From positions 1 to 27,033 of IMG/VR virus record IMGVR_UViG_2537562015_000005: a stretch of 27,033 nt of DNA. One strand, given 5' to 3'. Below the pieces are notes generated by a model. The model did no database searches, was not told where the DNA came from, and worked only from the letters and a program-made list of their open reading frames with translations. Of this stretch, positions 16,030 through 17,803 are shown one piece after another. Both the position numbers and the translations under genes were made by a program. Source of the DNA: a virus (Duplodnaviria; Heunggongvirae; Uroviricota; Caudoviricetes). Within the stretch, counting starts at the first letter, position 1; every line of letters starts with the position of its first letter.

Positions 16030-17123
16030 CTCTTAAATGGGAAAAGGTTCGTTTAGGAGATGTCGCAGAATTACAACGTGGTTTTGATCTACCCAGTACT
16101 AAGCGTATTGAAGGGGAGATTCCTATTGTTTCATCAAGTGGAATAACAGGCTTCCATGTTGAAGCGAAGGCAAAGGCTCCAGGAGTTGTCACTGGGCGAT
16201 ATGGTTCGATTGGTGATGTTTTTTATTTAGAACAGGATTTTTGGCCATTAAATACATCCTTATGGGTTAAAGATTTTCATGGAAATGACGAAAAATTTAT
16301 CTACTTTCTGTTGAGTAACTTTGACTTTAAAAAATTTAGTGACAAAACAGGTGTGCCCGGTGTTAACCGTAATGACTTGCATGCAGTGAATGTATTACTG
16401 CCGCCACTCTCGGAGCAAAAGAAAATCGCCCAAATCCTGTCAACCTGGGATAAAGCTATTTCGGTGACGGAAAAGCTTCTCACCAACAGCCAGCAGCAGA
16501 AAAAAGCCCTGATGCAGCAATTACTTACCGGGAAGAAACGCTTGCTGGATGAGAGGGGGGGCAGGTATGGTGGTGAGTGGCATCGTGCTGAGCTTGGCGC
16601 AGTTTTAGATTATATGCAGCCAACCCCTTATCTAGTTGATTCTACTGATTATAATGATAGTTACTCAATCCCAGTTCTTACAGCAGGTAAAAGTTTCATT
16701 CTTGGCTATACCAATGAAGAACATGGTATTTATCATGCACCTTTGCCTGCCATAATTTTTGATGATTTCACGACTGATAGTAAGTTCGTCGATTTTGAAT
16801 TCAAAGCAAAATCCAGTGCGATGAAAATTCTTACAGCCAAAAAAGGAGTATCTGCAAAGTATATTTTTGAAGCAATGCAAATGTTGAAATTTAAAATAGG
16901 TGGGCATCAGCGGCATTGGATTTCAATTTATTCCAACTTAGTAATACCTATTCCAGATGCCAAGGAACAACAAAAAATCGCCGCCGTCCTTTCCGCTGCA
17001 GACGCCGAAATCTCCACACTGGAGAAAAAACTCGCCTGCCTGAAAGACGAGAAAAAAGCCCTGATGCAGCAGTTACTGACCGGAAAACGTCGGGTGAAAA
17101 TCGATGAGGCTGTTGCTGCATGA
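16026..17123 (+). CDS. hsdS: Type I R-M specificity subunit HsdS
   Basis: 365 aa with two target-recognition domains separated by conserved helical repeats (QQKKALMQQLLTGKKRL and EKKALMQQLLTGKRRV). ATGA overlap with hsdM. TRD2 is visibly more AT-rich. Confidence 0.9.
   Translation: MTLKWEKVRLGDVAELQRGFDLPSTKRIEGEIPIVSSSGITGFHVEAKAKAPGVVTGRYGSIGDVFYLEQDFWPLNTSLWVKDFHGNDEKFIYFLLSNFDFKKFSDKTGVPGVNRNDLHAVNVLLPPLSEQKKIAQILSTWDKAISVTEKLLTNSQQQKKALMQQLLTGKKRLLDERGGRYGGEWHRAELGAVLDYMQPTPYLVDSTDYNDSYSIPVLTAGKSFILGYTNEEHGIYHAPLPAIIFDDFTTDSKFVDFEFKAKSSAMKILTAKKGVSAKYIFEAMQMLKFKIGGHQRHWISIYSNLVIPIPDAKEQQKIAAVLSAADAEISTLEKKLACLKDEKKALMQQLLTGKRRVKIDEAVAA
16500..16540 (+). repeat. hsdS conserved central repeat; direct repeat partner at 17052..17089
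   Basis: AAAAAAGCCCTGATGCAGCA(A/G)TTACT(T/G)ACCGG occurs twice within hsdS, about 550 bp apart. Confidence 0.8.
17052..17089 (+). repeat. hsdS conserved C-terminal repeat; partner of 16500..16540
   Basis: See partner repeat. Confidence 0.8.
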
Positions 17124-17803
17124 AACTGACGAAAAGTGGTCCACTGACTGACCGGGAAATCGACTGGCTGGAAGAGGTGTTGATGAAATACGGCAATGAT
17201 GACTCTGTGCTCTGTTTCTCTGAGCTGGATGGCTTTCTGACGGCGATTGTCTCTGGCCCGAATACGATTTCCCCTAATACCTGGCTCAGTGCTATCTGGG
17301 GGCGAGGTGATTACCACCCTCGCTGGACCACTGAAAAAGAGATGACGCGTTTTGTGGGGCTGTGTTTTCAGCATATGAACGATATCGCTGGCTGCCTGTA
17401 TGAGGCCCCTGAACAGTTTGAACCGATTTTCAATGAGCGTGAGGTAAAGGGGGAAAAATATACCATTGTGGAAGAGTGGTGTTTTGGTTATATGAAAGGA
17501 AAGTCACTGGATGACTGGTCTGGTCTTCCCGGTGAGTTACGGCCTTCTCTGGAAGTGATCGCTCTTCATGGCGTGGAGAAGAATTTTCCTGTACTTGAGA
17601 AAATGACCGGAGAGCAGTTTGAGAAAAGTATTTCCCTTATTCAGCCTGCTGCACTGGCACTTTATCAGTACTGGTTGTCAGTGAGAATGTCAGAGGCATC
17701 ATCCCGGCCTGTTCCAGTGAAGGGGGCAGAAAACATGCCCGGGCGAAATGACCCGTGTCCGTGTGGCAGCGGTAAAAAATTTAAGAAGTGCTGTCTGCAT
17801 TGA
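17120..17803 (+). CDS. YecA-like protein (UPF0149 domain + C-terminal SEC-C zinc-binding motif) embedded in the hsd operon
   Basis: 227 aa ending [20 protein letters not shown] (SEC-C motif as in the SecA C-terminus and YecA). N-terminal region resembles YecA. Start overlaps the hsdS stop (ATGA). Confidence 0.8.
   Translation: [227 protein letters not shown]

What the first reader, a model, noticed from the sequence alone, without database searches (positions are those of the whole stretch)
17120..17803. YecA-like SEC-C protein embedded between hsdS and hsdR of a type I R-M operon
A 227-aa protein with a UPF0149-like N-terminal domain and a canonical SEC-C zinc motif ([20 protein letters not shown]) sits between hsdS and hsdR, and its ATG overlaps the hsdS stop. 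hsdM-hsdS-X-hsdR is the layout of the prr locus, where X is the anticodon nuclease PrrC that the R-M complex holds in check. Here the same slot holds a YecA-like metal-binding protein, a family normally linked to SecA and ribosome interaction. That position suggests an accessory or back-up function tied to the restriction complex; this is not a described arrangement as far as I know.
Basis: partly seen in the sequence, partly recalled or inferred. Interest (0 to 1): 0.75.

Follow-up and report, generated by a model that had tools for sequence, protein, structure and literature searches.

The report
Chaperone gene copy inside restriction operon
A diverged second copy of the E. coli housekeeping chaperone gene yecA sits as an optional passenger between the hsdS and hsdR genes of a mobile type I restriction-modification operon; it is real, under purifying selection and common, but it is already listed as an untested defence candidate and looks like a protein-binding helper, not a PrrC-style toxin.

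Summary
ORF 17120-17803 encodes a 227-aa UPF0149 + SEC-C protein whose ATG overlaps the hsdS stop, inside an operon hsdM-hsdS-yecA'-hsdR-ygjP.

- **Not the ordinary yecA.** It is a paralog, 55-58% identical to canonical YecA. The canonical gene sits 7-15 kb downstream in the same leuZ-yecA island, which points to local capture or duplication.
- **Common.** The paralog occurs in 418 of 5426 complete E. coli genomes and about 346 plasmids, mostly Klebsiella.
- **Under selection.** dN/dS is 0.11-0.19, and every residue conserved in canonical YecA is retained.
- **Optional.** Operons with 97-98% identical HsdR lack it, and one carries a deletion scar.
- **A cargo slot.** In relatives, the hsdS-hsdR slot holds CBASS, Shedu, Schlafen-like, Fic and Abi genes.
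- **No effector.** There is no nuclease or toxin domain, and intact copies survive next to decayed R-M genes. A PrrC-like latent toxin is therefore unlikely.
- **Already catalogued.** PADLOC lists the family as untested candidate PDC-S12, but that model scores housekeeping YecA higher than this paralog.

Most likely it works as YecA/AscA does: the zinc/iron knuckle docks on ribosome or SecB, and the helical domain binds client proteins. The clients are unknown. Interest is moderate.

The parts
14443..16029 (+). hsdM, the type I methyltransferase subunit and first gene of the operon
   Evidence: Pfam N6_Mtase E=3.6e-107 and HsdM_N; TIGR00497 at 280 bits. The closest solved relatives include EcoR124 HsdM at 233 bits.
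16026..17123 (+). hsdS, the specificity subunit; its stop codon TGA lies at 17121-17123
   Evidence: Pfam Methylase_S E=3.6e-30, with two stretches. The target-recognition regions vary between otherwise 96% identical operons.
17120..17123 (+). ATGA overlap of the yecA' start with the hsdS stop, a translational-coupling junction
   Evidence: Read directly from the sequence. The same overlap is seen in L014 (read directly), L094, L095 and L092; L019 has a variant junction, GCGTGATGAAA, and in L006 the two genes share one base.
17120..17803 (+). yecA', an embedded paralog of YecA/AscA (227 aa)
   Evidence: PRK10396 at 361 bits. It is 57.9% identical to E. coli YecA and belongs to a monophyletic embedded clade. 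dN/dS is 0.11-0.19. The protein is identical to WP_000779018.1.
17162..17674 (+). UPF0149 (YgfB-like) helical domain, aa 15-185
   Evidence: Pfam PF03695 E=1.3e-28. The AlphaFold2 model is all-helical plus one hairpin, with mean pLDDT 77. The best PDB fold match is YgfB 1IZM, probability 0.90.
17744..17794 (+). SecA-type metal-binding domain (SEC-C): [18 protein letters not shown]
   Evidence: Pfam PF02810 E=2.2e-10. It matches 19 of 20 residues of the E. coli YecA tail and matches SecA and YchJ metal-binding-domain chains in the PDB.
17804..17852 (+). Short spacer between yecA' and hsdR, carrying AAAGGA before the hsdR start and no terminator
   Evidence: Sequence read. The scan found no + strand terminator-like site here.
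17853..21140 (+). hsdR, the restriction/translocase subunit (RefSeq starts it at the second ATG, 17856)
   Evidence: Pfam HSDR_N, SWI2_SNF2 and T1R_D3-like; TIGR00348 at 461 bits; PADLOC REase_I at 1373 bits.
21137..21892 (+). YgjP-like M48 metallopeptidase overlapping the hsdR stop; a constant partner of this HsdR subfamily
   Evidence: Pfam YgjP-like E=1.3e-57. It is adjacent to hsdR in 74 of 79 related loci across many phyla.

Best explanation
**Shown.**
- The gene is a diverged, purifying-selected paralog of the housekeeping gene yecA (ascA).
- It rides as optional cargo in the hsdS-hsdR slot of one Enterobacterales lineage of a type I R-M family.
- It is translationally coupled to hsdS, so it is made together with the methyltransferase genes.
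- It has no enzymatic or toxin domain.
- It keeps every residue that is conserved in canonical YecA, including a near-identical SecA-type metal-binding tail.

**Inferred.**
- It works biochemically as YecA/AscA is reported to work. The C-terminal Zn/Fe knuckle docks it on the ribosome and/or SecB, and the helical UPF0149 domain binds other proteins as a holdase or adaptor.
- Its most plausible clients are the operon's own large, assembly-prone products (HsdS, HsdM, HsdR). It would then be a 'private' co-translational helper that eases establishment of this highly mobile R-M module in new hosts. This is the weakest step.
- It probably arose by capture or duplication of the yecA gene that flanks the island's chromosomal home, the leuZ-yecA hot spot.
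For: **Identity and fold.**
- Family and domain matches.
- 87 alignment positions are conserved identically in the embedded and canonical clades. No position conserved in the canonical clade is released in the embedded clade, and 9 positions differ in a fixed way.
- The metal-binding tail matches 19 of 20 residues.
- The AlphaFold2 model resembles YgfB.

**Selection and co-inheritance.**
- dN/dS is 0.11-0.19, with dS similar to flanking hsdM and hsdR.
- In every embedded-clade member with enough flank except P0021 (L008/L009), the gene abuts or overlaps an intact or decayed hsdS.

**Optional cargo.**
- At 97-98% HsdR identity, three architectures coexist: S-R, S-yecA'-R and S-yecA'-CSD-R.
- Rosenbergiella (L034) carries a deletion scar.
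- The slot holds known defence cargo in 50 of 71 related loci.

**Origin.**
- The island lies between tRNA-Leu (leuZ) and canonical yecA in E. coli 74-2 and ECCHD184.
- The same locus is used in Citrobacter, Enterobacter, Atlantibacter and Buttiauxella.
- A clade member (P0021) lies 1.9 kb upstream of a second yecA-like gene with no R-M present.

**Biochemistry of the family.**
- AscA/YecA binds SecB with Kd about 150 nM and binds 70S ribosomes through its metal-binding domain. It also suppresses aggregation (10.1101/2020.07.21.215244).
- The UPF0149 protein YgfB acts by binding the regulator AlpA (PMC9998450).
Against: - Nothing here shows a physical or functional link to HsdS, HsdM or HsdR.
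- Near-identical operons do without the gene, so it is not needed for core R-M function.
- Intact copies persist where the R-M has decayed: Providencia L002-L005 and E. coli O145 L010. This argues against an R-M-only client list.
- The host already has yecA, so the benefit of a second copy is unexplained.
- The N-domain has lost half of its net negative charge and gained three cysteines. This hints at some change of partner that I cannot identify.
- The AscA data come from a preprint.
Confidence: 0.4

Rival explanations
1. YecA' is a defence or guard module in its own right. Docked on the ribosome or SecB, it would sense a phage product such as an anti-restriction protein or a takeover factor. 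It would then protect or back up the R-M system, or block translation or secretion. This would be a non-enzymatic counterpart of PrrC or PARIS.
For: - It sits in a slot that, in relatives, holds CBASS, Shedu, Schlafen-like, Fic, Abi_2, TIR and McrBC genes.
- It matches the PADLOC candidate PDC-S12, and the Payne et al. approach validated seven other embedded systems.
- In sister variants it is followed by a 594-aa CSD protein, which also occurs in a variable region between transfer genes of a conjugative element in Vibrio metschnikovii, next to a Fic gene.
- SEC-C tails occur on PADLOC E2 and E1-E2 defence proteins.
- Orphan copies survive R-M decay.
- There are fixed clade-specific changes in surface charge and cysteines.
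Against: - It has no effector domain.
- All canonical YecA constraints are retained, and the PDC-S12 model cannot tell it from housekeeping YecA.
- No phage assay exists.
- The CSD protein occurs without YecA' elsewhere, so the two do not form an obligate pair.
- Guilt-by-embedding is only circumstantial.
Confidence: 0.25
2. YecA' is a hitchhiking chaperone paralog. A yecA copy from the neighbouring chromosomal locus was trapped inside the operon. It is kept for a general, YecA-like benefit to the host or mobile element, such as extra or differently regulated holdase capacity, with no specific tie to restriction or phage defence.
For: - The island is adjacent to canonical yecA in several genera.
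- It scores at equivalog level against the YecA model, and no canonical constraint is lost.
- It has been lost repeatedly: the L034 scar and the frameshifted L016 copy.
- Distant YecA-family genes are common passengers on plasmids and next to Tn3/IS66 transposases in Xanthomonas, Acidovorax and others.
- Canonical ascA is repressed under iron limitation, so a copy driven by the hsd promoter would be regulated differently.
Against: - Purifying selection has lasted over dS greater than 1 inside a mobile operon.
- The 4-nt coupling to hsdS is preserved in most lineages examined.
- Nine substitutions are fixed in the clade and the charge has shifted.
- The clade has never been seen moving without hsdS, apart from P0021.
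Confidence: 0.25
3. YecA' is a PrrC-like latent toxin held in check by the R-M complex and released when restriction is inhibited.
For: The gene order is the same as prrA-prrB-prrC-prrD (PMC3874165, PMC12707154).
Against: - There is no ATPase or nuclease domain. The protein consists only of a YgfB-like helical domain and a 20-aa metal knuckle.
- Intact copies sit beside decayed or absent R-M genes in Providencia, E. coli O145 and the P0021 locus. A toxin restrained by the R-M complex should not tolerate this.
- The housekeeping homologue is harmless.
Confidence: 0.03

Closest known systems
YecA / AscA of E. coli (UPF0149 + SecA-like metal-binding domain; NCBIfam PRK10396)
   Same: - Same two-domain architecture and nearly the same length (227 vs 221 aa).
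- 57.9% identity.
- The metal-binding tail matches 19 of 20 residues.
- All residues conserved in the canonical family are retained.
   Different: - It is a paralog, not the orthologue. Canonical yecA co-resides 7-15 kb away.
- It is located inside a type I R-M operon and coupled to hsdS.
- It has a 3-residue N-terminal extension.
- The N-domain net charge is -11 against -24.
- It has three extra cysteines and nine fixed substitutions.
- It is horizontally mobile on plasmids and islands.
PrrC in the EcoprrI (type IC) locus
   Same: A single extra gene sits between hsdS and hsdR in the same orientation and is co-expressed with the R-M genes.
   Different: PrrC is an ATPase-anticodon nuclease that is kept latent by the enzyme complex. 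YecA' has no catalytic domain and tolerates loss of the R-M genes.
PADLOC phage defence candidate PDC-S12 (PDC candidate series of PADLOC-DB v2; guilt-by-embedding approach of Payne et al. 2024 preprint)
   Same: The window protein matches the model over its full length, E=1.4e-100. The candidate class was defined from genes embedded in BREX, DISARM or type I R-M systems.
   Different: - The candidate is untested and undescribed in the paper's text and held supplements.
- The HMM scores housekeeping E. coli YecA higher, 366 against 334 bits. Most PDC-S12 calls in genomes should therefore be ordinary yecA rather than this embedded paralog.
YgfB of Pseudomonas aeruginosa / Haemophilus influenzae (UPF0149 alone; PDB 1IZM)
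   Same: The N-domain has the same fold, and YgfB is the best PDB match. YgfB acts purely by binding another protein, AlpA (PMC9998450).
   Different: YgfB lacks the SEC-C tail, shares about 15% identity, and has no R-M context.

Membership tests
YecA/AscA family (PRK10396; UPF0149 + SEC-C) | N-terminal UPF0149 domain | tested here: met
   PF03695 E=1.3e-28; TIGR02292 at 136 bits. The predicted fold matches YgfB 1IZM.
YecA/AscA family (PRK10396; UPF0149 + SEC-C) | C-terminal SecA-type metal-binding motif CxCxSGx8CC[H/C] | tested here: met
   [15 protein letters not shown] at aa 213-227. PF02810 E=2.2e-10. It matches SecA and YchJ metal-binding-domain chains.
YecA/AscA family (PRK10396; UPF0149 + SEC-C) | Full-length score above the curated equivalog cutoff | tested here: met
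   361 bits against a cutoff of 149. E. coli YecA itself scores 437 bits.
YecA/AscA family (PRK10396; UPF0149 + SEC-C) | Orthology: the single chromosomal copy in the leuZ-yecA-tyrP neighbourhood | tested here: not met
   Canonical yecA is present separately next to tyrP in the same genomes. The embedded clade is monophyletic and 55-58% identical to all canonical YecA sequences. It is therefore a paralog.
YecA/AscA family (PRK10396; UPF0149 + SEC-C) | Binding of SecB and ribosomes through the metal-binding domain; holdase activity | not testable with these tools
   Inferred only from the near-identical metal-binding tail. The biochemistry comes from preprint 10.1101/2020.07.21.215244.
PrrC-type R-M-embedded anticodon nuclease | Gene embedded between hsdS and hsdR, co-oriented | tested here: met
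PrrC-type R-M-embedded anticodon nuclease | ABC-ATPase-like N-domain plus C-terminal nuclease domain | tested here: not met
   Only UPF0149 and SEC-C were found. The fold search gave no enzymatic match.
PrrC-type R-M-embedded anticodon nuclease | Latent toxicity restrained by the R-M complex | not testable with these tools
   Indirect evidence against: intact copies lie beside decayed R-M genes and in a locus with no R-M at all.
PADLOC PDC-S12 candidate | Match to HMM PDLC04917 | tested here: met
   E=1.4e-100, 334 bits, full length. Housekeeping YecA scores 366 bits, so the model is not specific.
PADLOC PDC-S12 candidate | Anti-phage activity | not tested
   No experiment was found in the literature searched.
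Integral (fourth) subunit of this type I R-M family | Present wherever the HsdR/HsdM subfamily occurs | tested here: not met
   It is absent from the cargo-less Enterobacterales loci L013, L015, L018, L033 and L051 (HsdR 96-98% identical), from L034 (88% identical, deletion scar), and from all 66 loci outside the Enterobacterales set. The YgjP-like peptidase, by contrast, is present in 74 of 79 loci.

The most novel reading that the evidence does not exclude
YecA' is a ribosome- or SecB-docked regulator specific to this type I R-M system. One version is a built-in, co-translational controller of HsdR assembly, giving a new, self-encoded restriction-alleviation or establishment mechanism for mobile R-M systems. 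The other version is a non-enzymatic guard that couples inhibition of restriction to a block of translation or secretion. Either way, a housekeeping chaperone would have been exapted into immunity after capture from the gene flanking the island's integration site.
Probability: 0.15. Interest if true: 0.8.

Novelty: new member of a known kind. Interest (0 to 1): 0.45.

Why it matters
- **Scale.** Roughly 8% of complete E. coli genomes and hundreds of Klebsiella plasmids, predicted mostly conjugative, carry this gene inside an apparently intact type I R-M operon.
- **If it tunes establishment or activity of restriction.** That would bear on how R-M systems spread with, and police, resistance plasmids.
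- **If it is a defence gene.** It would be a rare case of a chaperone paralog recruited to immunity.
- **Annotation caveat, true either way.** The PADLOC PDC-S12 model does not separate this paralog from housekeeping yecA. Published 'PDC-S12' counts are therefore probably inflated.
- **Wider context.** This HsdR subfamily always carries a YgjP-like peptidase, and its S-R and M-S junctions are rich cargo slots. These are useful leads for finding new defence genes.

Tried and rejected
- **Ordinary chromosomal yecA.** Rejected. Canonical yecA co-resides in the same genomes and is only 58% identical.
- **Integral R-M subunit.** Rejected. It is absent from near-identical operons and from all distant relatives.
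- **Obligate two-gene system with the 594-aa CSD protein.** Rejected. Each gene occurs without the other.
- **Type I family assignment.** Titheradge 2001 (PMC60208) is not held. From solved structures I can only say that HsdM is EcoR124-like while HsdR is distant from EcoR124 HsdR.
- **Description of PDC-S12.** Searches of the Payne preprint and its supplements for PDC-S12, YecA, SEC-C and PF03695 found nothing. DefensePredictor does not mention the family.
- **Promoter and terminator scan.** No more sites than shuffled controls, and no terminator between yecA' and hsdR.
- **RNA searches.** Rfam found nothing in the window, and there are no tRNAs in the window.
- **Phage collection.** The full-length hits (H131-H136) are canonical yecA lying at the very end of the phage record; the other hits are short SEC-C-tail matches.
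- **Chimeric protein P0017.** It has a canonical N-half and an embedded C-half, upstream of hsdR. It lies on a 2.2x-coverage metagenome contig and may be an assembly artefact.
- **Complex prediction.** YecA' with Hsd subunits could not be modelled with the tools available.
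Full report
**1. The observation**

The window carries a co-oriented gene string:
- hsdM (14443-16029)
- hsdS (16026-17123)
- a 227-aa ORF (17120-17803)
- hsdR (17853-21140)
- a YgjP-like M48 metallopeptidase (21137-21892)

The ORF's ATG lies in GCATGAAA and overlaps the hsdS stop by the four bases ATGA. The peptidase likewise overlaps the hsdR stop. Pfam finds UPF0149 (E=1.3e-28, aa 15-185) and SEC-C (E=2.2e-10, aa 209-225). The three Hsd proteins give textbook matches. 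NCBIfam places the ORF in the YecA equivalog model PRK10396, at 361 bits against a cutoff of 149.

**2. Where the window comes from, and how common the arrangement is**

The 7.6-kb operon is 100% identical to chromosomes of ETEC-type E. coli such as O6:H16 strain 2014EL-1346-6. It is present at 80% coverage or more in 396 of 5426 complete E. coli genomes. The yecA-like gene alone is full length, at 88-100% nucleotide identity, in 418 genomes. In every listed row the hsdS annotation overlaps the match.

On plasmids, about 346 records encode a protein at least 80% identical. These are mostly Klebsiella plasmids, and predicted mobility across all 575 matching records is mostly conjugative. Across these copies hsdS varies in its recognition domains, while the flanking genes stay about 96% identical.

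**3. It is a paralog, not the ordinary yecA, but it lives next door to it**

Protein relatives split into two groups:
- a tight clade at least 70% identical to the window protein;
- canonical YecA of Enterobacteriaceae and Erwiniaceae, at about 54-59% identity.

A neighbour-joining tree makes the embedded clade monophyletic. It is 55-58% identical to every canonical YecA, while canonical proteins are 63-82% identical to each other. This is roughly an inter-family distance within Enterobacterales.

Genomes carrying the embedded copy also carry canonical yecA. In E. coli 74-2 and ECCHD184 the gene order is:

glyW-cysT-leuZ | integrase ... hsdM-hsdS-yecA'-hsdR-M48-DUF262(-DUF262-Hhe) | yecA-tyrP

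Canonical yecA therefore lies 7 and 15 kb downstream of the paralog, on the same strand.

The same tRNA/yecA locus hosts this R-M module in other genera:
- Citrobacter amalonaticus, C. koseri and C. braakii
- Enterobacter
- Atlantibacter
- Buttiauxella

P2-like prophage records end in canonical yecA. The site is thus a general hot spot for mobile elements.

One clade member from a metagenome (P0021, 70% identical) lies 1.9 kb upstream of a second, canonical-like yecA, with no R-M present.

The simplest reading, which is an inference, is that a yecA copy was duplicated or captured at this locus and became fixed inside the operon. This is not the ordinary gene, but its presence is probably a legacy of where the island lives.

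**4. It is a functional gene that has co-diverged with the operon**

| Gene | dN/dS |
|---|---|
| yecA' | 0.11-0.19 |
| hsdM, hsdR | 0.03-0.04 |
| ygjP | about 0.07 |

Values are Nei-Gojobori estimates between the window and the variants L014, L019/L006 and L028.

dS values are comparable across the operon. For window vs L014 they are 0.38 (yecA') against 0.39 and 0.37 (hsdM, hsdR). For window vs L019 they are 1.07 against 1.24 and 2.27.

In a 46-sequence alignment:
- 87 positions are conserved identically in the embedded and canonical clades;
- 9 positions are conserved in both clades but differ between them, including D32C and R92C;
- no position conserved in canonical YecA has become free in the embedded clade.

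The metal-binding tail [20 protein letters not shown] differs from E. coli YecA at one residue. The N-domain is much less acidic, net charge -11 against -24, and has three extra cysteines.

The AlphaFold2 model has mean pLDDT 77 and pTM 0.72. It is helical with one hairpin, and its best PDB match is YgfB (1IZM, probability 0.90). No enzymatic fold appears.

**5. It is optional cargo in a cargo slot**

A scan of one genome per species with HsdR returned 79 loci, ranging from 98% to 34% identity across many phyla.

The YgjP-like peptidase follows hsdR in 74 of the 79. Four of the five exceptions are contig ends. It is therefore the ancient, constant accessory of this subfamily.

YecA' is found only in Enterobacterales. 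Among operons with 97-98% identical HsdR (96% in the contig-truncated L033), three architectures coexist:

| Architecture | Loci |
|---|---|
| hsdS and hsdR separated by only about 25 nt, with no cargo ORF | L013, L015, L018, L033, L051 |
| hsdS-yecA'-hsdR | the window; also L019 at 88% HsdR identity |
| hsdS-yecA'-(594-aa CSD protein)-hsdR | L014, L016 (with decayed yecA'), L017 and L021 (CSD-sized gap, but the CSD ORF is not intact), L025, L028 |

Rosenbergiella (L034) retains a scar of about 130 bp. It consists of the yecA' start (MIKLT...) and the SEC-C 3' end, so yecA' was lost there by internal deletion.

More distant gammaproteobacterial and other relatives often carry different genes in the slot. 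Of 71 loci where both hsdS and hsdR were located:
- 50 have at least one co-oriented ORF of 120 aa or more between hsdS and hsdR;
- 34 have one between hsdM and hsdS.

Their Pfam content is typical embedded defence cargo:
- Schlafen/AlbA_2 with HATPase_c_4, in 8 proteins
- SMODS/patatin (CBASS), in 4
- Shedu, in 2
- Fic, RhuM, McrBC, Abi_2, TIR and AbiEii-like ATPases

**6. The companion CSD protein is independent**

The 594-aa protein has an N-terminal cold-shock domain and a Cys-rich C-terminus. It follows yecA' in two sublineages and is 90% identical between them. It is present on 132 plasmids.

Homologues at 35-60% identity stand alone in Erwinia chromosomes. One lies between transfer genes (traI/coupling-protein genes and traL) of a conjugative element in Vibrio metschnikovii, next to a Fic gene, and without any YecA. 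yecA' and this gene are therefore separate cargo items, not an obligate pair.

**7. Prior knowledge**

- **PADLOC.** PADLOC-DB v2 contains a model, PDC-S12, that matches the window protein end to end at E=1.4e-100. PDC models derive from the 'guilt-by-embedding' screen of Payne et al. (10.1101/2024.01.29.577857). That screen nominated 145 candidates from genes embedded in BREX, DISARM and type I R-M systems, and the PDCs were nominated rather than assayed. The paper's text and held supplements never mention YecA, SEC-C or PDC-S12.
- **Pipolins.** A pipolin study lists 'Type 1 RM, PDC-S12' among frequent exchanged defence genes (PMC11551731).
- **Model specificity.** The PDC-S12 HMM scores housekeeping E. 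coli YecA higher (366 bits) than the embedded paralog (334 bits). PADLOC hits to PDC-S12 are therefore expected to be mostly ordinary yecA.
- **Canonical YecA (AscA).** A preprint reports that it binds SecB (Kd about 150 nM) and 70S ribosomes through its metal-binding domain, and that it acts as a holdase overlapping SecB (10.1101/2020.07.21.215244).
- **YgfB.** This UPF0149 protein acts by binding the antiterminator AlpA (PMC9998450).
- **PrrC.** PrrC is embedded in the type IC EcoprrI locus and is held latent by the enzyme (PMC3874165, PMC12707154).

**8. How it most likely works**

*Shown:*
- It is a paralog of YecA with all family constraints intact.
- It is expressed in translational coupling with hsdS.
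- It is optional for the R-M system and has no catalytic domain.
- It tolerates R-M decay. Intact copies sit next to an hsdS fragment in Providencia and next to pseudogenised hsdM, hsdR and M48 in E. coli O145.

*Inferred:*
- It acts as YecA does. The metal knuckle docks on ribosome or SecB, and the helical domain binds client proteins.

My preferred client set is the operon's own subunits. In that case the gene helps a highly mobile R-M module to assemble or establish in new hosts. This step is weak. I give the overall explanation 0.4.

*Rivals:*

| Rival | Weight |
|---|---|
| Genuine defence or guard function, sensing phage products at the ribosome | 0.25 |
| Hitchhiking general chaperone paralog with no tie to R-M or defence | 0.25 |
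| PrrC-like latent toxin | 0.03 |

The latent-toxin rival is disfavoured by the lack of an effector domain and by the orphan copies.

**9. Verdict**

The thing is a new, uncharacterised member of a known kind, namely genes embedded in type I R-M operons. It is already catalogued as an untested candidate.

Three points from this analysis did not appear in the literature I searched:
- the distinction between the embedded paralog and the housekeeping gene;
- its probable origin from the yecA gene flanking the island;
- the evidence that it is optional cargo under purifying selection.

Interest is moderate (0.45). It is a good, cheap target for a deletion and phage-assay experiment, but it is not a categorically new system.

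Noticed in passing
window 21137-21892; loci L013-L091: A YgjP-like M48 metallopeptidase directly follows, and often overlaps, hsdR in 74 of 79 loci of this HsdR subfamily. HsdR identity across these loci ranges from 98% to 34% and covers many phyla. Four of the five exceptions are contig ends. It looks like an ancient integral partner of this type I family, and its function is unknown.
   Followed up: partly
loci L020-L091 (hsdS-hsdR and hsdM-hsdS junctions): Of 71 related loci, 50 carry co-oriented cargo between hsdS and hsdR, and 34 carry cargo between hsdM and hsdS. The cargo includes Schlafen/AlbA_2 with HATPase_c_4 (8 proteins), CBASS SMODS/patatin (4), Shedu (2), Fic, RhuM, McrBC, Abi_2 and TIR. 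Many other cargo proteins have no Pfam match and could be mined as defence candidates.
   Followed up: partly
L014 8147-9928; L094 3801-5585; L010 9629-11491: A 594-aa protein with an N-terminal cold-shock domain and a Cys-rich C-terminus follows yecA' in sister variants, including 132 plasmids (129 of them Klebsiella). Homologues stand alone in Erwinia. One lies between transfer genes of a conjugative element in Vibrio metschnikovii, next to a Fic gene. The family has no significant match in PADLOC and none in NCBIfam, so it may be an unrecognised defence gene.
   Followed up: partly
PADLOC model PDLC04917 (PDC-S12) vs E. coli YecA (L092 27950-28615): The PDC-S12 HMM scores housekeeping YecA at 366 bits, above the R-M-embedded paralog at 334 bits. 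PADLOC 'PDC-S12' calls probably flag ordinary yecA in most Enterobacteriaceae.
   Followed up: yes
window 22547-24001 and 23994-26036: Two overlapping GmrSD-like genes. The first combines GmrSD_N with DUF7834, and the second combines GmrSD_N with GmrSD_C. Both match PADLOC HEC-06 and Orf5 models. The same pair follows the R-M module in a diverged relative (L006).
   Followed up: no
window 26212-26607 and 26617-27033: A 5' fragment of the DUF4011 anti-phage gene hhe is cut off by an IS21-family element (istB on the minus strand). In strain ECCHD184 (L100) hhe is intact, and the island ends at canonical yecA.
   Followed up: partly
window 1043-6456, 6854-7551, 12567-13264, 7761-11185: P2-like phage tail genes (sheath, tube, tape measure, gpU) are truncated by an IS1 copy. 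A second IS1 copy lies about 5 kb further on, and two integrase genes sit between them. The region upstream of the R-M module is a mosaic of decayed mobile elements.
   Followed up: no
window 13315-14139 (- strand): A 274-aa ORF with a weak AbiJ_NTD4 match (E=0.002, below the Pfam cutoff) lies upstream of hsdM and about 50 bp from the IS1 copy. It is shorter than the 410-aa hypothetical protein annotated at the equivalent position in L001.
   Followed up: no
L034 about 9820-9960: Rosenbergiella metrosideri carries a scar of about 130 bp between hsdS and hsdR. It keeps the yecA' start (ATGATAAAGCTGACC...) and the SEC-C 3' end. This is direct evidence that the gene was lost by internal deletion.
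   Followed up: yes
L008 1527-2207 and 4087-4629: In a metagenome contig, the embedded-clade member P0021 (70% identical) lies 1.9 kb upstream of a second, canonical-like yecA (46% identical), with no R-M genes present. This may be a pre-capture tandem state or a fully decayed island.
   Followed up: partly
L093 164-838 (protein P0017): A chimeric YecA has a canonical Citrobacter/E. coli-like N-terminal half and a C-terminal half identical to the window protein, and is followed by hsdR. It lies on a 2.2x-coverage metagenome contig, so it could be a real recombinant between the two paralogs or an assembly artefact.
   Followed up: partly
L017 18772-19443; L035 12076-13080: The canonical yecA of Buttiauxella warmboldiae lacks the SEC-C tail, while the embedded copy in the same locus is intact. 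In Idiomarina, a 335-aa protein with an N-terminal SEC-C motif lies just downstream of the R-M module.
   Followed up: no
plasmid loci L011 (Acidovorax) and L012 (Xanthomonas pXcaw58): Distant YecA-family genes (26-32% identical) are common on plasmids of Xanthomonas (117 records), Pseudomonas, Burkholderia and others. They lie directly next to Tn3-like or IS66 transposases, not R-M genes. YecA-like proteins appear to be recurrent passengers of mobile elements.
   Followed up: partly
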